From positions 71,383,111-71,447,110 of the forward strand of contig NC_090396.1 in the NCBI RefSeq assembly GCF_036365525.1: DNA of 64,000 nt, written 5' to 3'. Positions within the stretch are counted from its first letter, which is position 1. Each line of letters opens with the position of its first letter. This stretch comes from Heterodontus francisci (Eukaryota). This document shows, piece after piece, positions 13,959-58,249 of this stretch. The translations under genes and the position numbers were made by a program. The notes beneath the pieces are model-generated. The model made no database searches. It saw nothing but the letters and a program-made list of their open reading frames with translations, and had not been told where the DNA came from.

Positions 13959-14412
13959 GGGAAGGAGCTTTTGATTTCTACTACCCTTGATGTGATAAAG
14001 TGCTTCCTGATTTCACTCCGAAGTGACCCAGATCTAATTTTAAAATTATGTCCCCTTGTTCTGGATTCCTCGGCAGAGGAAATAGAAATATTCAGTTGGA
14101 TAGAGATGAAGAAATTCTCATTTTAAATGCATTGATTGCGTTCTATTCCAGAAAGGTGGAGGATATAACTGGAACCAATCTTTGCACACTTTTATAAGCA
14201 TTTATTTACACTGTTACAGATCACAAGCAAGCACCTCCTAACCCAATAACCACAGTTTAAGTCAGTATATAGGGGCACAGGTGAATCCCCAGTTAATGCC
14301 CACCAACTGCCTACAATTGAACACAATTAATATCCAATTAACAGATTGGATCACACCTCAACTGTCTAAATTCAAGGGAATACAAGACAAGTTTATGCAA
14401 CCTGTCCTCAAT

Positions 14413-14545
14413 TACAAAAGCAAAATATGGCAGATGCTGGAAATCTGAAATGAAAGTGGAAAATACTGGAAACACTCAGGTGAAGAGGCACCCATGGAGA
14501 CAGAAACAGAGTTAACATTTCAGGTCAATGGCTTTTCATCATCAT
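14413..14545. mobile_element. Short dispersed repeat, probably Penelope-derived (similar copies ~15905-15987, ~22280-22330, ~45962-46042)
   Basis: gatgctggaaatctgaaat...aaatactggaaacactcag...gaaacagagttaacatttcaggtcaatggcttttcatca recurs in the window. Confidence 0.55.
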
Positions 14546-16107
14546 TAAATCCATTTAGAAATAGATTAATTTAGCTCTATCAAAATTGTCTCAAGAATGC
14601 CACTGCCTGGAAATGAACCAGATATGGATCGCAGGATCATGATCTTACTAGCCCAGGAACCAGGATTCAGTCATGTTTTAAAATATCACTATCTTACAGG
14701 TTCTTAGGGATTTAAAAAAAAATCTGAATTACTTTATGTCGAGGAGACAATTTTTTTTATTAAATCAACAACCTTTTTGCTGTCTTTTAAGGAAGCACAT
14801 AGTGGAATAATAAAAGTTGTATGAGCATGGATATTTGACACCTGATCCATTCTGTCTAAGCAAGTGAACAAATTTAACAAGTTGGTTGAATTTTACTTTG
14901 GAGGAATACATTGCCCCTTTAATGCTCATGCTGTCTGCTCTCAGTCTGTGGTTGGTTATCGTTCCCAATCCTGACCCAAAATCCACAATGGCGGGAGAAA
15001 CTATAATAGCAGTTGGTAGGCAAACTTCATTTTTCCAGCTAATAGTTCAGGAGATGAGGGAAGGACATAGAGAGAGATAGTCTGGCCAGAACAAGTTTTA
15101 AATTTGTTTTTTACGGTATTCCTAAAAATGCAATGGTTTGGAACAGGTAGATTGAATCAGGAACAAATAGGCTTTTAAATCCAAACAAGCCAACCCCTCC
15201 CACTTGACTTTTTACCACACCTATTCTTCTCTTTCTCCTCCTCTTTGTGCTGTCTGCTTTAATGTCCTTCCTTAATTTATTCCATATCGCTCTTCTTTGG
15301 GAGAAGAGGTTCCACTGATTTTCTTCTAACAATTTATGTACAATTATCTTTGTTGCTCTTGAGTGATGTAGTATCCTTCCTCTGATCAAAACTAGTCCAT
15401 TGCACAGCAAGAGCCCATCTGTATTGTTGTTGTGTATCTCTGCTATTGCAGTTTAGTACCTGGTCTGCCATTTACTACAGCTAGGCACTGAGGTGATAAT
15501 TGTATTGATTTATTTACTGTAGTCTGTAGATTTCTCTTGTTCACAATTTATCATTTTCCCATTTAAAAACCATTCTGATTGCTCCTGAACTAATTATTTT
15601 ACACTTATTAAATTGCACCTGCCACCTATTGGCCCAGTGATTTTCTATCCGTTTGAGTCCTATTCTAGTATTATGTGGAAACTTTGAGATTATACAAACT
15701 ATAGCCTCATCCAAGTCATTATATGATCAACCCTGGGATAATCTGCTTGCAATCTCGTGCTTGAAACATTGTTGATGCTTTCCTGTTTGCAATGTGGAAT
15801 AACATTTGGCAAAATTAATGGAAGATTGCAGTTTGTAAGTATTAATCTGGTGTGGATCAATCTGGTTTCTAAAGGTAGAATGACTTAAGTAAATAGTTGA
15901 ACTATAAATAGAAAATGCTGGAAACACTCAACATCTGTAAAGAAAGAAACAGAGTTAATGTTTCAGGTCAGTGACTTTTCATTAGAGAAGTAAGTGAAGT
16001 AAATAATTGACTTTGATTTAAGTCAAGTCTTGCCAAATTCTTCTGTGGAGCTAACTGGGCACAGTTTCTCACTGCTATTTTGTTAATGTGCTTAGGGGGA
16101 AATTACA

Positions 16108-16230
16108 ATGATGGAGATTGAGGTTCAGACTGAGCTGCTTCAGGAGGCCCAGGAGAGTATCGAGGCAGCAAAGAACTATAAGGATGAGCTGGAACAGCGA
16201 CTACAAGGACTAAATCAGGCAAGAAAACAG
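16108..16230 (+). CDS. CRLF3: CRLF3 coding exon 1 (MMEIEVQTELLQEAQESIEAAKNYKDELEQRLQGLNQARKQ)
   Basis: Manual translation from ATG 16108 resembles the recalled human CRLF3 N-terminus (MELEPELLLQEARENVEAAQSYRRELGHRLEGLREARRQ); donor CAG|gttagt after 16230, phase 0; acceptor-like cttag ends at 16095. Confidence 0.93.
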
Positions 16231-16705
16231 GTTAGTTACTTTTACTGTTTCCAGAGGTGGGAAATGGTCTTTCACTAAGGAAGAACTTGCATTTATCTAG
16301 CATCTTTCACATCCTCAGGACATTCCAAAGTACTTTACAGCCACCGATTTTATTATCTGAAGTGCAGTTACTGTTGTTTTGGAGCCAGATTTGTGCATAA
16401 CAAGATTGAACAAATGACCGTTAGGTGAATGGCCAGTTAATCTTCTGTTTATTGATTCTTTGCACATGGGCATCGCCGGCAAGACCATTTATTGCTCATC
16501 CCTAGTTGCCCCTTGAGAGGTGGTTGTGAGCCACCTTCTTGAACCGTTGCGGTCCATGTGGTGGAAGTACTCCCACAGTGCTGTTTGCAATGGAGTTCCA
16601 GGGTTTTGACCCAGCGGTGATGAAGGAACAGCAATGCGTCCAAGTCAGGATGGTGTGTGACTGGAGGGGAGCCTGGAGTGCTGATGTTCTTGTGCCTCTG
16701 CTGCC

Positions 16706-17022
16706 TTTATTTATTTGTTTAGAGATACAGCACTGAAACGGGCCCTTCGGCCCACCGAGTCTGTGCCGACCAACACCCACCCATTTTATACTAACCCTGC
16801 AGTGATCCCATATTCCCTACCACCTACCTACACTAGGGGCAATTTACAATGGCCAATTTACCTATCAACCTGCAAGTCTTTGGCTGTGGGAAGAAACCGG
16901 AGGACCCGGCGAAAACCCACGCGGTCACAGGGAGAACTTGCAAACTTCGCACAGGCAGTACCCAGAATCGAACCCGGGTCCCTGGAGCTGTGAGGCTGCA
17001 GTGCTAGCCACTGCACCACTGT
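16706..17022 (-). mobile_element. Full-length V-SINE (HE1-like) next to a LINE 3' fragment (16450-16705)
   Basis: tRNA-like head with A box and B box GGTTCGATTC on minus strand, central gggttttcgccgggtcctccggtttcttcccacag, CR1-like 3' tail. Confidence 0.88.
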
Positions 17023-23794: not shown

Positions 23795-24973
23795 AGTGAG
23801 AAATGATGTGATTTGGGTAGCCATTGTCTCCCAGGATGCCTTTGATTCACCCTATTTCAGCATCAAGCTTGCATGGCGAGCAAATGGCTCTGGTCCTATT
23901 TACGAGATTGCTGACAAGGCCAATCTTATAGTGCGTGGAACTGTAAGAATCCCAACGAGTGTATTAACCAGTGATAGTAGGTTTGCAGTAGACCATGGTA
24001 GAGAACCCCTTTGCAGATTTCTCAACTAGTATGTCAAGGAAAAGGAGCTCGTTTGTCTGCTTCATTTCAAAGGCGAATTTGAGAGCAGGATGGAGCCCAT
24101 TAAGACGTGTAAGGAAATTATTGCATGCAGCTGCGGATTCAAATATAGCAAACGTATCATCTACATATCAGAGATTTGCAAGAGGTAGGAGGTTAGGTGT
24201 CATTCCCTTGAAGGCACGTTTCTCATGGAACCCAACTAAGACATTTGTGAGAGCTGGGCCAAGAGGGGATCCCATGGCAACAGCATCTATTTGGGCATAC
24301 ATAGTGTCGTTAAAACTGAACTCAACTGTGCGAGTTGCCGAGTTCATAAGTTCTGTGAATACTGATTCATGCAATAGTGGTGGGTCTAGATCACCATGAT
24401 ATAGTGCTGCAGCACAAATATCTATGGCTTCCTTAAGTGGTACATTGGTGAATAGGCTAGCCGTGTCAAATGAGCACATGGACACATCATTGCTATCAAT
24501 ATGCAAGCCCTGTATGGTCTTTGCAAATGTGAAGGAATCCTTCACCATGTATGTGGAGAACTTACTCAAGCTGGTTGTAACATTTCGTCCAACCATTTGG
24601 CCAATTCATGTTGTGCAGAACTGGTCGTAGATAAGATAGGACGTAGAGGGACATCACTTTTATGTGTCACTGGCAGCCCATACATATGCAAACGCAGCGA
24701 GCCTTGAGGACGAACCCTTTCATATAGATCACCCAGCTACACATTGCTCTTACACAAGTCCAGCGAGCTTTTTTTTTAAGCTTACTTTTGAGCAGTGCTG
24801 TCCGGTCATGTTGAGCAGCAGGCCCAATGGATACGACTTTGGACCCATCCTTAAGAATGGTGTCCATTTTGTTGATATAGTCACACTTGTTAAGGATGAC
24901 TAATCCCGTCCTTTTGTCAGGTTTACTGATGTGTATGTCTGGGTTGGTCTTGAGGCCTCTCAACGCTGCCAGA
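23795..24973 (-). mobile_element. Penelope-like element, RT fragment
   Basis: ISKPDKRTGLVILNKCDY; CSFDTASLFTNVP; YAQIDAVAMGSPLGPAL: Penelope RT motifs. Confidence 0.9.
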
Positions 24974-25635
24974 TATTCATTTATGAACTCTGCAACTTGC
25001 GCAGTTGAATTCAGTTTTAATGACACCATGTATGCCCAAATAGATGATGTTGTCTTGGGATTCCCCTCTAGGCCCAGCTCTTGCAAACATCTTTGTTAGG
25101 TTCCATGAGAAATGTGTCTTCGAGGAATGACCCCTAACCACCTACTTCTTGCATATTTCCGATATATGGATGATACGTTTGCTATATTTGAATCCCAAGC
25201 TGCATGCAATAATTTCCTTGCATATCTTAATGGGCTCCATCCTGCGCTCAAATTCACCTATGAAATGGAGCAGTCAAATGATCTCCTTTTCCTTGACATA
25301 CTAGTTGAGAAAACTGCTAAGGGGTTCTCTATCACGGTCTACCGCAAACCTACCTTCACTAGTCAGTATACGTGTTGGGATTCTTAAAGCCAATCTTATA
25401 GCATGTGGAACTGTATCGGCAACCTTGTAAATAGTGCCTGAGCCATTTGCTCACCATGCAAGTTTGATGCTGAAATAGGGCTAATCAAAGGCATCCTACA
25501 TGGCTACCCTGATTACATCATTTCTCACTGCATATCATACAAACTTATGAACGGGCCTAAGGCCATCATTTTCTGCCCTGAAAAGTGCCCAGTCTACCTC
25601 AAATTACCCTGGAAGGGTAGTGTATCCCAGAAAAA
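24974..25635 (+). mobile_element. Penelope-like RT fragment, inverted relative to 23795-24973
   Basis: FSFNDTMYAQIDD; YFRYMDDTFAIF; LKFTYEMEQSNDLLFLDILV; VYRKPTFT. Confidence 0.9.
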
Positions 25636-49283: not shown

Positions 49284-51079
49284 TAGAACATAGAACATTA
49301 CAGCGCAGTACAGGCCCTTCAGCCCTCGATGTTGCGCCGACCTGTGAAACCATCTGACCTACACTATTCCATTTTCATCCATATGTCTATCCAATGACCA
49401 CTTAAATGCCCTTAAAGTTGGCGAGTCTACTACTGTTGCAGGCAGGGCGTTCCACGCCCCTACTACTCTCTGTGTAAAGAAACTACCTCTGACATCTGTC
49501 CTATATCTATCACCCCTCAACTTAAAGCTATGTCCCCTCGTGTTTGCCATCACCATCCGAGGAAAAAGGCTCTCACTATCCACCCTGTCCAACCCTCTGA
49601 TTATCTTGTATGTCTCTATTAAGTCACCTCTTCTCCTCCTTCTCTCGAACGAAAACAACCTCAAGTCTCTCAGCCTTTCCTCGTAAGACCTTCCCTCCAT
49701 ACCAGGCAACATCCTAGTAAATCTCCTTTGCACCTTTTCCAAAGCTTCCACATCCTTCCTATAATGCGGTGACCAGAACTGCATGCAATACTCCAGGTAC
49801 AGCCGCACCAGAGTTCTGTACAGCTGCAGCATGACCTCGTGGCTCCTAAACGCGATGCCCCTACTAATAAAAGCTAACACACCATATGCCTTCTTAACAG
49901 CTCTATTAACCTGGGTGGCAACTTTCAGGGATTTATGTACCTGGACACCAAGATCTCTCTGCTCATCTACACTACCAAGAATCTTCCCATTGGCCCAGTA
50001 TTCTGCAATCCTGTTACTCCTTCCGGAGTGAATCACCTCACACTTTTCCGCATTAAACTCCATTTGCCATCTCTCAGCCCAGCTCTGCAGCCTATCTATG
50101 TCCCTCTGTAACCTACAACATCCTTCGGCACTATCCACAACTCCACCGACCTTCGTGTCATCCGCAAATTTACTAACCCACCATTCTACACCCTCATCCA
50201 GGTCATTTATAAAAATGACAAACAGCAGTGGCCCCAAAACAGATCCTTGCGGTACACCACTAGAAACTATACTCCAGGATGAACATTTACCATCAACCAC
50301 CACCCTCTGTCTTCTTTCAGCTAGCCAATTTCTGATCCAAAGCTCTAAATCACCTTCAACCCCATACTTCTGTATTTTCTGCAATAGCCTACCGTGGGGA
50401 ACTTTTCAAACGCCTTACTAAAATCCATATAGACCACATCCACGGCTTTACCCTCATCCACCTGTTTGGTCACCTTGTCAAAAAACTCAATAAGGTTTGT
50501 GAGGCACGACCTACCCTTCACAAAACCGTGCTGACTATCTCTAATGAACTTATTCTTTTCAAGATGATTATAAATCCTATCTCTTATAACCTTTTCCAAC
50601 ATTTTACCCACAACCGAAGTAAGGCTCACAGGTCTATAATTACCAGGGCTGTCTCTACTCCCCTTCTTGAACAAGGGGACAACATTTGCTATCCTCCAGT
50701 CTTCCGGCACTATTCCTGTCGACAATGACGACATAAAAATCAAGGACAAAGGCTCTGCAATCTTCTCCCTGGCTTCCCCGAGAATCCTAGGATAAATCCC
50801 ATCTGGCCCAGGGGACTTATCTATTTTCACACTTTCCAAAATTGCTAATACCTCCTCCTTGTGAACCTCAATCCCATCTAGCCTAGTAGTCTGTATCTCA
50901 GTATTCTCCTCGACAACATTTTCTTTCTCCACTGTAAATACTGACGAAAAATATTCATTTAACACTTCCCCTATCTCCTCCGATTCCACACACAACTTCC
51001 CACTATTATCCTTGATTGGCCCTAATCTAACTCTAGTCATTCTTTTATTCCTGATATACCTATAGAAAGCCTTAGGGTT
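49284..51079 (-). mobile_element. Young 5'-truncated CR1 LINE (RT nearly intact)
   Basis: ORFs of 231 aa and 341 aa separated by one frameshift near 50400; KFADDTK; tail atgttctatgttct. Confidence 0.95.
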
Positions 51080-51784
51080 AAGAAATGATTAAAAGCATTG
51101 AAACTGATAATGAAATCTTCATATTTTATGGGTGGAGAGCCTAGTCATAGGTATTGCAATTGTGTGGGACATGCCGGATGGACCAAAGCATCTTTACCTG
51201 TTAGTTATTGTTCATATGTTTGTATTAACTTAAACTGCCACTATCATATTTTGAACAGCTGAAATTTGGAGGTCATAATTGTTACTCCACTATAGGTAAC
51301 TATTCTTAATATATTAATGCATTACACTGGGACACGTGGGTTATGCTTATCCTATATTGAGGCAGCTGTTTCAGCCAATAGTGACTGTGGTGGGAAGGTC
51401 AGTCCCTCTTTAACACATGTGGGGATAACTGGTAGAATGTTTTGCAAGTTTTTGGTGAAGCATTTTCAGATGCAGTAATATAGTTTTTGTAAAGTGCTCT
51501 GACCTATTAGATTAAATAAGCCACTAATGAGGTTTATAAACCAACTGTCAATCTTTATTGGTTTATGTTTTATAAAAAAAAAGCAACTTGTGATTTTTAT
51601 ACCAAATTTCCTGATATTTAAGAGTTTGTCTCTTGATTTATCAGATAGTGGGGTTGGCATGTCTGCTATACAAACGCTAGTTTTTTTTCTTTTATTCTCT
51701 TGGCACTAACTTGCTATCGATGAACACCGTATTCAGGAGAGGGAGTTTTTACAGGCTGTGCTTTTTATTTTGTTTTGTTCCCAG

Positions 51785-51897
51785 AATGGAGGCGGCAGGA
51801 CAGCCGGATAAGAGAGATAGTATCGGAGTGTGTGTCGAGCCGCAGAATGAATGTGACTCACTGCAGAGAGACAAGGCTGTGTGCATCAGCTCAAATG
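51785..51897 (+). CDS. CRLF3: CRLF3 coding exon 7 (MEAAGQPDKRDSIGVCVEPQNECDSLQRDKAVCISSN), 113 nt
   Basis: Acceptor ttgttcccag|A, donor AATG|gtaaag; matches CRLF3 VETVGQPDRRDSIGVC...LQRDQAVCISTN. Confidence 0.96.
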
Positions 51898-52599
51898 GTA
51901 AAGAAACTGAATGGGGCTGCCTTGTGTGGGTAGGGCTGAACTGTCTACAAAGATCATTCTTTTAGTTTCTCTCTAATTCTTACTCTTGTGTGAACGTTGG
52001 TGACCGTTCTTCAGACTGTCCCACAATGGATCTCTACCACCTAGAAGGACAAAGGCAGCAGATGCATGGAAACACCATCACCTGCATTTCCCTCCAGCCA
52101 CACACTATCCTGACTTGGAACTATATTGCCATTTCTTCACTGTCGCTGGGTCAAAATCCTGGAACTCCTTCCTTATAGCACTATGGGTGTACCAACCCCA
52201 CGCGGACTGCAGCGGTTCAGGAAGGCGGCTCACCACCACCTTCTCAAGGGCAGTTAGGGATGGGCAATTAATTCTGGCCTAGTCAGCGACGTTCACATCC
52301 CATGAACGAATTTTTTTAAAATGGAGGACACTGTAGATGTCCATGATCCTGTTATGTCACTCAAAGTAGTGATAATAAATAATTGTTTTTAGTATTGTTG
52401 CGTCCAGACTCTTTAGAACAAAAGTAATACAATTGGCGTGTGCTTACTCCTATCGGGTAGCCATCTAATGTTCAGTTAACGATATGCAAGCACAGCACCA
52501 TCCAATAGGTGTTGCGTCGTGTCATTCAGGAGCAGGATCCTGGTTGATTTTCCTCCCTCACAGTCCAGGGTACGAAGGCTGAAATTGGGTGATTCAGTG

Positions 52600-53484
52600 A
52601 AGAACACAAGAAATAGGAACAGGAGTAAACTATATGGCCCATTGAGCCTGCTCCAACATTCAGCACGATCATGGCTGATCTTAGGCTTCAACTCCACTTT
52701 CCCGCCCGCTCACCATATCCCTTGATTCCCTGAGAGACCAAAAATCTGTCAATCCCAGTCTTAAATGTAATCAACGATGGAGCATCCACAACCCTCTGGG
52801 GTAGAGAATTCCAAAGATTTGCAACCCTTTGAAGTAATTTCTCTTCAAGTCAGTCCTAAACGATTGGCTCCTTATCCTGAGATTGTGTCCCCATGTTTTA
52901 GATTCCCCAACCAGTGGAAGCAATTTCTCAGCCTCTACCCTGTCCAGACCCTTCAAAATCTTGTATGTTTCAATGAGATCACTTGTCATTCTTCTAAACT
53001 CCAGAGAATATAGTACCAATTTACTCAGCATGTCATCATAGGGCAAACCCCTCATCCCACAGACCAATTTAGTGAACCTTTGCCTTTCTTAAATGTGGAG
53101 AGCAAAACTGCACACAGTACTGCAGATGTGGTCTCGCCAAAACCCTGTACAGTGTAGTAAGACTTCTTTATTCCTGTACTCCAATCTCCTTACAATAAAG
53201 GCGAACATGCCATTTGCCTTCCTAATTGCTTGCCATACCTGCATGCTAAACTTTTTGCGATCCTTGTACAAGCACACCCAAATCTCTTTGAACAGCAACA
53301 CTTACAAGCTTCACACCTTTTAAAAAATATTCTGCTTTTCTTATGACCAAAGTGAATAACTTCACACTTCGCTACACTATACTCCACCTGCGATCTTGTT
53401 GCCCACTCACTTAACCTGTCTATATCTCTTTGCAGCCTCTCTGTGTCCTCCCCACAGCTTACCTTTCCATCTAGCTTTGTATCA
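52600..53484 (-). mobile_element. CR1 3' fragment, split by an LTR; resumes at 56905-56930
   Basis: YSLEFRRMTSDLIETYKILKG; ctttgtatca|...|atcatcagcaaacctagatac reconstitutes the antisense of SKFADDTK. Confidence 0.88.
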
Positions 53485-53752
53485 TATTACGACCAAGGCA
53501 GGAGGATTGTACTGTGAATTCGGTCCCACTTCTCCACGGGTCACAGCATATCAATAAATTTTCCCACTAACCGAAAAACAGCCAATTTATATACTCTATT
53601 TGTGCCCCAGAATGAAGCACACCAACCAGATTTTTTTAATAGACAACAAATTAACTATTTATTAATTAACTAAACCTTAAACAATAACAAGATAAAATCT
53701 ATATATGAAAAAAAAAATTTAACTCCTTATCCTTCCTAGCCCTCATATGTGT

Positions 53753-53789
<37 letters not shown>

Positions 53790-54180
53790 CCATTAACCGG
53801 GGAAAAAAGATTTTTTTGGATTACAGCTGTTTCTTGGAATAAAAAGGAAAAAAAATAACATAATTAAATTTATCACGTTCTGGTAGGATATTTTTGGTTC
53901 GGTGAGGTGTCCCAGTCAAAATAGTCGGATGCCACTCGAAGTCTCTCCAGGCGAGGTTGATGAACAGTCTGTGAATGGATAGGCGTTCAAGGCAATTCGT
54001 CTGCAGCAGACTTCACGTAGGCCTTTCAGCAAGGGTGTAGCAACAGGTCTGCTTAAGACTCACAACAGCAATATAGCAGTAGAAGCTTATTCCAGATTTC
54101 AGGATTTCCCAAAACACAGGAGGCAACAGGAACCACTCTTAATGCAGGGATTCTTCAGAGACAGGAGGCAATAAGAATCT

Positions 54181-56527
54181 AATTAATCGTTTGGTAGTAC
54201 AGAACTTGAGTATTGCTGAAAATAGAGAAATGCTGTTGAAGCTTTTCGGCTTGCACTCATCAGGACAATGCACAAGAATACCAATGTAAGGGAAAACAAC
54301 AACTTTTACTTTGAGGAGAGTGCTGATTGGTTGGCAAGTGAACTTTGGTAGAGGTGTTGCCATGGAGAATGCACCAGTTTACGGTGACTGACAGTTAACT
54401 GCTAAGCTTTGTTTGAAATTTAAACCAGGCAGCTTGACTCTGGTCTGGGTATTGCCCTGAGGAATGAACAAGTGAATGGCTGTCACTTATTTTGTTGATC
54501 TAAAACAGGCACAATGTTTGTACATGTTCTTTCTGTCTGCAAAGATCAGGGCCCTGTGTATTAATGTATGTAGCTTCCAGTATGTGCAAATGCGCCACAC
54601 TGCAAGTCCTATTGACAATCTTAAATTGGTTGTCAGTGTAATTCTTAGCACACTGAGGATTATTTAGCAAATGTTGCCCAATCATGGAATTACATCTAAT
54701 GTTGGACACTGTTTTTAGTTTTGCAAGCACAGGCTGATTGGGTACGGCCTGTACCTTGCCCATAGTAAACAGCGGAAGGGACATGTTGTTTGATACGATC
54801 TGCCAGTCTTTGGGACATACGGCCTATATACCTAGCATCACACTGGCATTGAAATTCATATATCACATTACTCTTTTGTGTGGTAGGCAGGATGTCTTTT
54901 TGGCTTGACGTCAGCATGCTGTTAGTGGCGAACACCACACGTGTTACTACTAGCAGCGTGAAACAGCTAGCTTCACCTGTTGTTCAAATTTTTGGGATAC
55001 ATTACCCTTCCAGTGTAATTTGAGGTAGACTGGGCACTTTTCAGGGCTGAAAATGATGGTCTTAGGCCCGTTCATAAGTTTGCGCCTTATACAGCAAGTA
55101 ATCTGATCAGGGTAGCCATTGTCACGCAGGATGTCTTTGATTCACCCTATTTCAGTATCAAACTTGCATGGTGAGCAAATGGCTCGGGATCTATTTACAA
55201 GGTTGCCAATAAGGCCAATTTTATAATGCATGAAACTGAGAATCCCGACGCGTGTGTTAACCAGTGAAGGTAAGTTTGTGGTAAACCATGGTAGAGAGCC
55301 CCTTAGCAGATTTCTCAACGAGAATGTCAAGGAAAGGGAGCTCATTTGACTGCTCCATTTCAAAGGTGAATTTGAGTGCAGGATGGAACCCATTAAGACG
55401 TGAGGAATTATTGCATGCAGCTGCAGATTCAAATATAGCAAACGTAACATCTTCACATCAGAAATATGCAAGAGGCAGGAGGTTAGATGTCATTCCCTCA
55501 AAGACACGTTTCTCATGGAACCTAGCAAAGATGTTTGCGAGAGCTGGGCCTAGAGGGGATCCTATGGCAACACCATCGATGTGGGCATATATGGTGTCAT
55601 TAAAACTGAACTCAACTGCGCGAGTTGCTGAGTTCAATGAATACTGATTCACGCAATGGTGGCAGATCTAGATCGCTGTGATGTAGTGCTGCAGCACAAA
55701 TATCTATGGCTTTCTTAAGTGGCAAATTGGTGAATAGGCTAGCAATATCAAATGAGCATATGGACACATATTGATCAGGCTTGATGGGCCGAATGGCCTA
55801 CTCCTGTTCCTATTTCCTATGATATGCAAGTCCTGTATGGTCTTAGCAAATGTGAAGGAATCCTTCACCGTGTGGAGAACTTTCTCAAAACTGGTTGTAA
55901 CAATTCGCCCAACCATTTGGCTAATTCATGTTGTGCAGAACCGGTCACAGATGAGATGGGACGTAGAGGGACATCAGTTGGGCAGCCTGTAAAGTCGCGG
56001 ACGCAGCGAGCCATGAGGACGAACCCTGTCATATATATCACCCAGCAGCTCATAGCTCTTACACAAGTCCAGCGTGTTTTTTAGCTTACTTTCGAGCAAG
56101 GCTGTCTGGTCATGTTGAGCAGCAGGTCCAATGGATATGAATTAGGACCCGTCATTAAGAATGGTGTGCATTTGGTTGATGTAGTCACGCTTAGTAAGGA
56201 GGACTGTTCCCATCCTTTCCTCAGGTTTACTGATGTGTATGTCCGGGTTTGTCTTAAGGCCTCGCAACACTGTCAGACGTTTATGTTGCATGTGGAAATC
56301 AAATATGTTGTTCGGAAGCCTGCAACAAACCTTGGCAGTTAACTGTCAGTCACTGTAAATTGGTACATTTTCCATGGCAACGCCTCTACCAATCAGAGTT
56401 CACTTGCCAACCAATCAGAACTCTCTTCTCACCGTATAAAGTTGTTGTTTTCCCTTACATTGATATTCTTGTGGATGAGCGCAAGATGAAAAGCTTCGAC
56501 AACATGTCTCTATTTTCAGCAATACTT
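54181..56527 (-). mobile_element. Penelope-like element, RT + GIY-YIG endonuclease, with inverted pseudo-LTR
   Basis: NVIYEFQCQCDARYIGRMSQRLADRIKQH (GIY-YIG); IDGVAIGSPLGPALANIF (RT); ~200-bp inverted termini ~54207-54415 and ~56325-56527; 11-bp TSD aataagaatct/aataggaatct. Confidence 0.93.
54233..54268 (-). ncRNA. Minimal type I hammerhead ribozyme motif in Penelope pLTR
   Basis: Minus strand: uuguc CUGAUGA G ugcaagc C GAAA agcu UC aacag. Confidence 0.72.
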
Positions 56528-57995
56528 AATAGGAATCTGCTACCTCTAACAGACAGGGGTTTCTTCTCTAGAGATGCAGTCTTCCCCTTCAGAGAGAGTC
56601 TTTTTCTCTCTCCAGGCAGGTCAGAGCCAAATTTCAAATGCCTGCTCTATGTCCAACTCACTGGTTTTTAAAAAAGTGTCCAAAGTGAAAGCAAAGCCTT
56701 CCTGAGCTGATTCCATGACCGGACAGAGTCTCCCCTGTCATTCAAAGTGGTGCTCTTAGGAGGTCATAACCCCTTGATGTTTACTTGAAATTGCCTGCTT
56801 TCCAGTTCTCTCGTACAGTCAATATCCAAAAAAAATCCTTTTCTCAGTTTTTAAAACACACTGAATTCTAAGTTCTTAGTACAAAAAAGGAAACCCTCGT
56901 AACAATCATCAGCAAACCTAGATACATTACTAGTAAAGACTAGATGTGGGCCATGACACCGTGCTGCTTGTTTGCTTGGCTCTGGTGGTAGCTGAGTTTG
57001 AATCCTGCACCAGGAGTTTGAGCTTTCCCATGCAGATGCTCCTATGCAGTGCTGAGAAAGTGGTGCATGACCCCTAGCTGTTAACCTACTGGGCACGATG
57101 TTGAACCCAGGCTGGCGACCTCTTGTTCTGGTGGCCCAGGTGACTGCTGAATATCCCACAATGAAGAGGAGGGACTTCTCCTGGCGTGTTGGCCAGTACT
57201 TTTCCCTCAATCAGCACCACGAAGGTTTGCCTGGTTATTTATCTAATGTCTGTTAGTGAAGGAAGTGCACAAAACAGCTGCCTCCATAACAATAATCTCT
57301 GTATTTCAGAGTAATTCATTGTGTGTGGATCACTGAGGAGTTCGAGATACAATGAAGTGCTGTATCAATGCAATTATTTTTTTTCTGTCTTGGACCACTC
57401 AGACAGACAGTGAGACTTGATCTCCGAGCTAGCGGGCAGTGGAAATGGCGAAAGGCAGAAATCATTCAATTACCCACTTGCTCCAATTCCCATGGCTGCA
57501 AAATCATCTGTCTCCTCACTGCCAGTTGAATGCAGAGCCTCTGTTTTGCCTCCCCATAGGACATTACAGTCTGCACATTATATTTAATGCCAGATTTAAT
57601 TCTGGGTGTAGTGGTTATGTTCCTGGACTAATGATCCAGGAACATGAATGAAAACCCCACCATGGCAGCTGAGGAAATTATATTCAATGAATTGAATAAA
57701 TCAAAAAGCTAGTATTAGTAATGGTAAGCAGGAAACTGCTTTGGGTTCACTAATGTCCTTTAGGGAAGGAAATCTGCCATCCGTACCTGGTCTGGCCTAC
57801 ACATGACACCAGATTCACAGCAATGTGGTTGACGCTTAAATGCCCTCTGAAATGGCCTAGCAAGATGGTTATATTCAAGAAGGTGACTCTGCCATCTTCT
57901 CAAGGGCATTTGGGGCTGGGCAATAAATGCTGGGCATACCAGTGATGCTCTCATCCTGAGACTGAATAACTTGTTTCATCATTTTATTTTTTTAG

Positions 57996-58249
57996 GGACA
58001 GTATTTGTGAATGGTAAAGAAATGACCAATCAACTACCTTGTGTTTCTACTGGGTCATCGGTGACCTTTGACATGGAAGTTGTTAGCTTGGGTTCAGGCT
58101 TCAATGATGCCGCTAGTTTCAAGCTTCGAGTGATCATAAGCTCTGGAAATCGAGAAGTGGTGTTTGACTGGCTGCTTGATCAACCCTGCGAAGCCTTATA
58201 TTTTGGATGTTCCTTTGTGTATCCAGGTTGGAAAGTACTGGTATTTTAG
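57996..58249 (+). CDS. CRLF3: CRLF3 last coding exon (GTVFVNGKEMTNQLP...FGCSFVYPGWKVLVF*), 254 nt with stop
   Basis: Acceptor ttttttag|GG, TAG at 58247-58249; C-terminus PGWKVLVF as in CRLF3. Exon sum 1317 nt = 438 aa + stop. Confidence 0.97.

What the first reader, a model, noticed from the sequence alone, without database searches (positions are those of the whole stretch)
54233..56502. Pair of minimal hammerhead ribozymes in the inverted termini of an intronic Penelope element
Seen: minus strand 54268-54233 reads uuguc-CUGAUGA-G-ugcaagc-C-GAAA-agcu-UC-aacag; the inverted copy on the + strand (56469-56502) reads uugug-GAUGA-G-cgcaaga-U-GAAA-agcu-UC-gacaa. Each copy is damaged at a different place: the left has a mismatch in the first stem-I pair, the right has lost the CU of the core. 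Their consensus is a complete type I hammerhead (stem I UUGUC/GACAA, 1-bp stem II, palindromic stem III AAGCUU, UUC cleavage triplet). Established: Penelope pLTRs carry minimal hammerheads with palindromic stem III that cleave as dimers. Inference: the copy in CRLF3 sense orientation is the one lacking the catalytic core, as expected if pre-mRNA self-cleavage were selected against, though one case cannot show selection.
Basis: partly seen in the sequence, partly recalled or inferred. Interest (0 to 1): 0.7.

Follow-up and report, generated by a model that had tools for sequence, protein, structure and literature searches.

The report
Decayed Penelope insertion, pseudoknotted hammerheads
This is one worn-out copy of a very common shark jumping gene sitting in a normally spliced CRLF3 intron; its two self-cutting-RNA motifs are real but both damaged, likely by ordinary mutation rather than selection, and the one unusual trait is a predicted knot that likely braces the motif in the whole family.

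Summary
Observation largely confirmed; the selection idea is unsupported. Window 54181-56527 is a dead, 5'-truncated Penelope-like element (broken RT and GIY-YIG ORF, 3' pLTR with tail, inverted pLTR, 11-bp TSD) in the last, correctly spliced intron of shark CRLF3. It is one of roughly 15,000 pLTRs; 586 keep a perfect 36-nt hammerhead. Corrections: the right copy lost 9 nt (the whole 5' strand of stem I plus C3-U4), between GAT repeats, and the same deletion recurs at 3 other loci. The left mismatch is CpG decay (16 of 81 unselected copies). A sister subfamily keeps stem I by a compensatory pair. Core positions decay like loop positions (5.1% vs 4.8%), and core-intact copies sit in sense introns (4 of 5 orientable loci). 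A weak hint for selection remains: 3 of those 4 have a knot mismatch. Inverted hammerhead-bearing ends are published, and this scan noted the pseudoknot before on other DNA (e1-9964180, e1-9893138).

The parts
54170..54180 (+). left target-site duplication (11 bp, 1 mismatch to the right copy)
   Evidence: sequence
54181..56527 (-). whole Penelope-like insertion: inverted pLTR + 5'-truncated ORF + 3' pLTR + tail
54181..54205 (-). tail, present only at this end
   Evidence: PLE tail described in PMC8557442 (passages)
54206..54413 (-). 3' pLTR, element sense, CRLF3 antisense; about 5% from the family majority
54233..54277 (-). left hammerhead: leader 54277-54271, stem I 54268-54264, core 54263-54257, stem/loop II 54256-54248, AAGCUU 54244-54239, predicted cut after 54238; G1.1>A (CpG decay) and A11.2>C
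54500..56345 (-). broken RT + GIY-YIG ORF (frameshifts, stops)
   Evidence: family ORFs hit RVT_1 at E 2.7e-6 and 1.6e-5, below the Pfam cut-off; GIY-YIG weak, E 0.089
55773..55828 (.). fragment of another interspersed repeat inserted into the RT (CR1-like by recall)
56324..56527 (+). inverted pLTR at the truncated 5' end, CRLF3 sense; CCAAT 56389-56393 and 56411-56415, TATAAA 56435-56440
56467..56502 (+). right hammerhead remnant: leader 56467-56473, 9-nt deletion between 56473 and 56474, GAUGA 56474-56478, AAGCUU 56491-56496, stem I 3' strand 56498-56502; ORF start ATG 56504-56506
56528..56538 (+). right target-site duplication
51784..51896 (+). CRLF3 penultimate coding exon (host)
57995..58249 (+). 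CRLF3 last coding exon (host)

Best explanation
The stretch is a dead, 5'-truncated Penelope-like insertion in the last CRLF3 intron, and its two hammerhead copies were likely damaged by ordinary neutral mutation (CpG decay on the left, a microhomology-bounded 9-nt deletion on the right). Shown: element anatomy, host gene, splicing across it, family size, uniform decay. Inferred for the once-active element: the pLTR is likely a Pol II promoter (CCAAT-CCAAT-TATA) whose RNA starts near the hammerhead leader. The hammerhead likely folds with a 5-bp stem I and a 1-2-bp stem II braced by a 5-7-bp leader/loop-II pseudoknot, and needs a second same-polarity copy (tandem pLTRs about 2.3-2.8 kb apart) to complete stem III through AAGCUU. 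A cut would fall 6 nt before the ORF ATG and remove the cap and leader. The inverted copy is a by-product of insertion. A single sense copy would cleave poorly, so CRLF3 likely never paid a cost.
For: Anatomy; inverted pLTR partners in 12 of 29 other loci. Tandem same-polarity pLTRs around an ORF: L087, L089. ATG in the RT frame 6 nt after the cut site. Family: 5,360 exact core 20-mers vs 3,132 flank 20-mers, about 14,000-17,000 pLTRs, 586 perfect 36-mers. Past selection on the fold: the sister subfamily (ORF 70-77% identical; 716 exact marker matches) has C in 28 of 30 and G in 27 of 30 at the stem-I pair that is U/A in 28 of 29 each of family A, and keeps leader and loop while the spacer changes. 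Neutral decay now: non-CpG change is 41/810 in the core, 27/567 in loop II, 33/567 in stem I; G1.1>A occurs in 16 of 81. The same 9-nt deletion occurs at 3 other loci with no shared substitutions. Core-intact sense-intronic copies at 4 of 5 orientable loci. Precedents: pseudoknot with 1-bp stem II is fast (PMC3088659); short helix II alone is slow (PMC13725137); a monomeric min-HHR shows no cleavage (PMC4209133); slow intronic ribozymes do not affect splicing (Fong 2009 as cited in PMC10919898).
Against: No cleavage was measured. The pseudoknot has no two-sided compensatory change in my data, and the nested MFE fold uses the same pairing as a non-catalytic hairpin. 3 of 4 sense core-intact copies have a mismatch in the 5-bp knot, against 6 of 20 (subfamily B) and 3 of 23 (family A) in the background. 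One of 3 other deletion copies is sense-intronic. Only 5 of 25 loci could be oriented, and two gene names there rest partly on recall. The transcription start is inferred from TATA spacing only.
Confidence: 0.75

Rival explanations
1. One reading: an intact sense-strand hammerhead cut host pre-mRNA often enough that inactivating changes were favoured, here and in other genes.
For: The window's sense copy is core-dead; the C7 deletion copy is sense-intronic; 3 of 4 sense core-intact copies have a knot mismatch, and in CEP135 the sense partner has it while the antisense partner does not (post hoc P about 0.05). Fast intronic ribozymes lower splicing (PMC10919898 passage). Related retrozymes are mildly under-represented in frog introns (bioRxiv 2026.07.22.740005).
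Against: Uniform decay over core and non-core; a fully intact copy in a sense intron of a fibrinogen-domain gene (L269) and two more probably sense (L270, L449; one flanking exon only); no dimer partner on the sense strand; the deletion is a recurrent microhomology event; the C22 deletion copy lies outside the nearest gene on the opposite strand.
Confidence: 0.13
2. The leader/loop-II pairing is an off-switch: it forms a stable hairpin that keeps the 5' end uncut until the element's protein or a second copy refolds it.
For: The MFE of a natural intact copy pairs the leader with loop II and does not form the three-way junction. The Anolis Poseidon hammerhead cleaves only with the element's protein (PMC11167929 passages). 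Nearly all copies retain sequence on both sides of the cut site.
Against: The folding program cannot represent pseudoknots; the leader sits 1-2 nt 5' of stem I, compatible with both helices at once; a helix between the stem-I and stem-II regions is a known activating contact (PMC3088659).
Confidence: 0.2
3. The motif is kept for a non-cleaving role (protein binding or translation start), and cutting is negligible in cells.
For: PAc core mutants still insert in vitro and no RNA-seq ends map to the cut site (PMC11167929); PLE min-HHRs are slow (PMC4209133); the ATG lies 6 nt away.
Against: All catalytic positions, the palindrome and a compensated stem-I pair are kept between subfamilies whose ORFs are about 25% diverged.
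Confidence: 0.15

Closest known systems
Minimal hammerheads of metazoan PLEs (Cervera and de la Pena 2014, PMC4209133; read parts 1-2 of 4 and supplement file 2 parts 1-2 of 3)
   Same: Type I, in pLTRs, full core, G10.1-C11.1, palindromic helix III (AGCU palindrome also in D. willistoni), mostly dispersed decayed copies; Fig. S4A shows exactly a 5'-truncated PLE with a second min-HHR on the opposite strand.
   Different: The 56 listed motifs have a helix II of about 3-8 bp, mostly with an extra nucleotide after A9; here helix II is 1-2 bp, there is no extra nucleotide, and loop II is complementary to a 5' leader. No shark is in their table.
Pseudoknotted hammerheads (Perreault et al. 2011, PMC3088659; passages)
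   Same: A helix between the stem-I and stem-II regions; stem II of 1-2 bp; a 6-bp knot with 1-bp stem II gave kobs above 1.2 per min.
   Different: Their tested 1-bp case is a metagenomic type II ribozyme; here the knot is combined with a palindromic, dimer-dependent stem III in a retrotransposon end.
EN+ PLE insertion architecture, Penelope/Poseidon type (Craig et al. 2021, PMC8557442; passages)
   Same: 5' truncation, inverted 5' copy, one-sided tail, RT followed by C-terminal GIY-YIG, partial tandems.
   Different: None in architecture; clade not tested by tree.
Anolis Poseidon element PAc (Frangieh et al. 2024, PMC11167929; passages)
   Same: Hammerhead at the pLTR-ORF junction; tail.
   Different: In PAc the ATG lies in stem II, 26 nt before the cut; here the in-frame ATG is 6 nt after the cut.

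Membership tests
EN+ Penelope-like element | RT followed by C-terminal GIY-YIG in one ORF | tested here: met
   RVT_1 on family ORFs (below cut-off), DKG motif and YEFxCxCD-YIG seen, GIY-YIG weak; window ORF broken
EN+ Penelope-like element | pLTRs direct or inverted, tail at one end | tested here: met
Penelope/Poseidon clade | RT phylogeny; no Zn-finger linker between RT and EN | tested here: inconclusive
   no extra Cys motif seen in the linker of L082; no tree built
Type I hammerhead ribozyme | core C3-A9, G12-A15.1, U16.1-H17 | tested here: met
   family majority; left copy met, right copy lacks C3-U4
Type I hammerhead ribozyme | stem I closing the cut site, with covariation | tested here: met
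   5 bp; one compensated pair between subfamilies; left copy 4 of 5 mismatch-shifted, right copy lacks the 5' strand
Type I hammerhead ribozyme | site-specific self-cleavage | not testable with these tools
   needs bench assay; only contigs were available
Type I hammerhead ribozyme | match to Rfam hammerhead models | tested here: not met
   no hammerhead hit up to E 10 on the two damaged window copies; intact copies not scanned
PLE min-HHR (Cervera 2014 consensus) | palindromic helix III, G10.1-C11.1, location in pLTR | tested here: met
PLE min-HHR (Cervera 2014 consensus) | long helix II with an extra nucleotide between A9 and G10.1 | tested here: not met
   1-2 bp, no extra nucleotide vs published alignment; works like a min-HHR but is filed as a variant
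Pseudoknotted hammerhead | 4 or more bp between loop II and the strand extending stem I | tested here: met
   5-7 bp; 5 of 5 paired in 20 of 23 perfect A copies and 14 of 20 B copies; best chance control 5 bp in 1 of 63
Pseudoknotted hammerhead | compensatory changes or rescue in the knot | tested here: inconclusive
   only one-sided changes; too little divergence in hand
Domesticated intronic hammerhead (RECK/C10 type) | intact, conserved single-locus motif | tested here: not met
   both copies damaged, about 5% from the majority like other copies

The most novel reading that the evidence does not exclude
This shark Penelope family carries a hybrid ribozyme, knot-braced like fast phage-type hammerheads yet dimer-gated by a palindrome, that cuts 6 nt before its own start codon. 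Fully braced copies are active enough to be weeded out of sense introns, so the roughly 15,000 dead copies form a natural in-vivo test of whether Penelope hammerheads cut in cells.
Probability: 0.13. Interest if true: 0.65.

Novelty: new variant of a known kind. Interest (0 to 1): 0.28.

Why it matters
The locus itself is ordinary. What could matter is the family. Whether Penelope hammerheads cleave in vivo, and what for, is open (PMC8557442, PMC11167929). A variant whose long helix II is replaced by a knot may be much faster than described PLE hammerheads. With about 15,000 copies and an annotated genome, a sense-versus-antisense count is a cheap test of in-vivo activity. My small sample leans neutral but leaves a hint worth that one computation.

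Tried and rejected
Rfam scan: no hammerhead hit. Pfam on the window's ORF fragments: none. Other hammerhead families for knot covariation: one pattern had an extra A and gave 1 match; a loop-variant pattern gave 57 matches, all this family or its sister; a GAAAC..GT pattern gave 43 matches against 107 control, i.e. chance; metagenomes gave 63 matches, none with a stem I of 4 bp or more. A11.2>C as a sublineage: rejected, 23 C vs 21 T vs 56 G among the first 100 of 127. The A/B comparison on the set was circular and was redone on a flank-selected set. The 'upstream' control (9.2%) is inflated by truncation junctions and not used. Flank-selected counts: 8 of 89 copies were dropped as not alignable upstream for the per-position rates. 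Orientation: 20 of 25 intact-copy loci could not be bracketed by exons within 20 kb; six further family-A loci were not examined. No run is on record as RNA; contigs cannot show cut ends, so in-vivo cleavage was not tested. The ESM Atlas gave no answer. Lunse et al. 2017 is not held; it may already show this architecture. Literature searches; in the passages read I found no PLE pseudoknot or shark PLE hammerhead. File 1 of the PMC4209133 supplement was not searchable, and the bioRxiv supplements were not seen.

Full report
OBSERVATION. Both motifs are present as written, in inverted arms 54206-54413 and 56324-56529. Pairwise alignment shows that the right copy lacks 9 nt relative to the left: the whole 5' strand of stem I and C3-U4. 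Rfam gave no hammerhead match on these damaged copies.

WHAT IT IS. The minus strand between the arms holds broken RT and GIY-YIG pieces. Less broken family copies hit Pfam RVT_1 below cut-off. The insert runs 54181-56527 between 11-bp duplications with one mismatch, has a tail at the left end only, and carries a later repeat insertion in the RT. This is the published form of a 5'-truncated PLE with an inverted 5' copy (PMC8557442 passages; PMC4209133 Fig. S4A legend). 12 of 29 other loci show such an inverted partner. The host is CRLF3 on + (100% to a Heterodontus francisci protein; 8 exons mapped). Contigs of 4 of 4 runs (at most 3 samples; RNA status guessed) join 51896 to 57995 across a GT..AG intron.

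FAMILY. A pLTR search gave 1,887 candidates. Exact 20-mers: core 5,360, flank 3,132. Overlap of the two lists on the first 51.6 Mb of C1 (22 shared of 68 and 100) gives a rough 14,000-17,000 pLTRs. 586 copies keep a perfect 36-nt motif. Near-full-length copies L087 and L089 have same-polarity pLTRs on both sides of the ORF. The frame that continues into the RT N-terminus starts at an ATG 6 nt 3' of the predicted cut (read from three broken copies). Two CCAAT boxes and TATAAA lie upstream, 32 nt before the leader (sequence; promoter role inferred).

THE RIBOZYME. The majority of 41 copies has the whole core, a 5-bp stem I and AAGCUU. Stem II reads G-U-GCAAG-A-C, allowing 2 bp. The left copy's A>C there is a private change (23 C, 21 T, 56 G among 100 listed of 127). 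A leader UCUUGCG 1-2 nt before stem I is complementary to loop II. A sister subfamily (ORF 70-77% identical), sampled only by an upstream 20-mer (716 matches, first 30 taken), has C in 28 of 30 and G in 27 of 30 at a stem-I pair that is U and A in 28 of 29 each of family A. It keeps core, palindrome, leader and loop while spacer and upstream sequence differ. That is one compensatory event, evidence of past selection on the fold. The knot itself shows only one-sided changes, and a nested fold uses it as a hairpin. Control: 0 of 63 metagenome matches to the core pattern have a stem I of 4 bp or more. The 56 published PLE motifs have helix II of about 3-8 bp. A 1-bp stem II with a 6-bp knot is fast (PMC3088659 passages); 1 bp without a reported knot is slow (PMC13725137 section 12). 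I wrote the knot down (note) before finding that this scan had noted it elsewhere.

SELECTION TEST. In 89 copies picked by a flank 20-mer (8 dropped as not alignable), 41 of 81 have an intact core and 12 are intact in core, G-C pair, palindrome and stem I. Non-CpG change is 41/810 in the core, 27/567 in loop II, 33/567 in stem I and 17/324 in inner stem III. G1.1>A occurs in 16 and C11.1>U in 26 of 81. Both window copies are about 5% from the majority. The 9-nt deletion lies between two GATs of the majority sequence, and an exact-junction pattern finds it at 3 other loci with no shared substitutions. Of those three, one lies in a sense intron, one about 18 kb past a trypsin-family gene on the other strand, and one had no recognisable exon. 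I then oriented 20 core-intact B copies and 5 family-A loci with an exon finder that recovered 7 of 8 CRLF3 exons among its top 9 hits. Five of 25 were bracketed by exons of one gene. Sense: fibrinogen-domain gene, myotubularin gene, Na/Ca exchanger (upstream exon by recall) and CEP135; the last two also have an antisense partner. Antisense only: an ARID1-like gene (name recalled). So loss of the core is not needed in sense introns. Against my reading, 3 of the 4 sense copies have a mismatch in the 5-bp knot, versus 6 of 20 and 3 of 23 in the source sets. Combining those rates gives P about 0.05, post hoc. One sense copy (L269) is fully intact. Of three probably sense copies with one flanking exon, two are intact and one is not.

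MECHANISM. Shown: a dead insertion, spliced out, decaying evenly. Inferred: in the active element, tandem pLTRs put two hammerheads on one RNA and the palindrome completes stem III (PMC4209133 parts 1-2; PMC6765202 passages). The knot likely stands in for a long helix II, and a cut would remove the capped leader just before the ATG. The element's protein may be needed (PMC11167929 passages). CRLF3 pre-mRNA only ever held one sense copy, and slow intronic ribozymes leave splicing intact (Fong 2009, seen only as cited in PMC10919898).

VERDICT. The selection story is unsupported, at about 0.13. The family's knot-braced short helix II is a variant that I did not find in print (Lunse et al. 2017 not held and unread), and this scan has already noted it on other DNA. 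Interest 0.28. Other papers seen: bioRxiv 2026.07.22.740005 abstract, Results part 1 of 2 and Discussion; PMC6155905 and PMC10085705 passages.

Noticed in passing
window 23806-25633: Two head-to-head fragments of a related Penelope ORF (82-84% to this element), without pLTR, in the long first intron of CRLF3 (coding exon 1 at 16108-16218).
   Followed up: partly
window 56389-56440: The right pLTR keeps both CCAAT boxes and TATAAA and points toward the last CRLF3 exon; a possible internal promoter. The left pLTR has both the first CCAAT context and the TATA damaged.
   Followed up: no
L050, L060, L092, L099 (C1): Fold-back junctions that fall inside the hammerhead itself, one at the AAGCUU palindrome.
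   Followed up: no
L062/L063 (C1:22969613 and 22970816): An inverted pair with identical pLTR ends and flanks sharing two hammerhead mutations: likely a later local inverted duplication or gene conversion.
   Followed up: no
L012, L016, L019, L038, L091, L115: Recurrent 3-nt deletion right at the cut site, in the ACAAC micro-repeat.
   Followed up: no
G000:C34 (6 places) and C1097: Seven identical matches to a hammerhead-like pattern; probably a coding repeat (e.g. zinc-finger cluster), not checked.
   Followed up: no
L335-L336 (C22:76757400-76763200): A near-intact two-ORF LINE (680 aa ORF1, long ORF2) beside one deletion copy.
   Followed up: no
window 49362-50405: 348-aa open CR1-type RT fragment on the minus strand, in a CRLF3 intron.
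   Followed up: no
L273 (C6:90714670): A core-intact subfamily-B hammerhead about 125 nt from a myotubularin exon, in sense, in an intron under 1 kb; a good reporter test case.
   Followed up: partly
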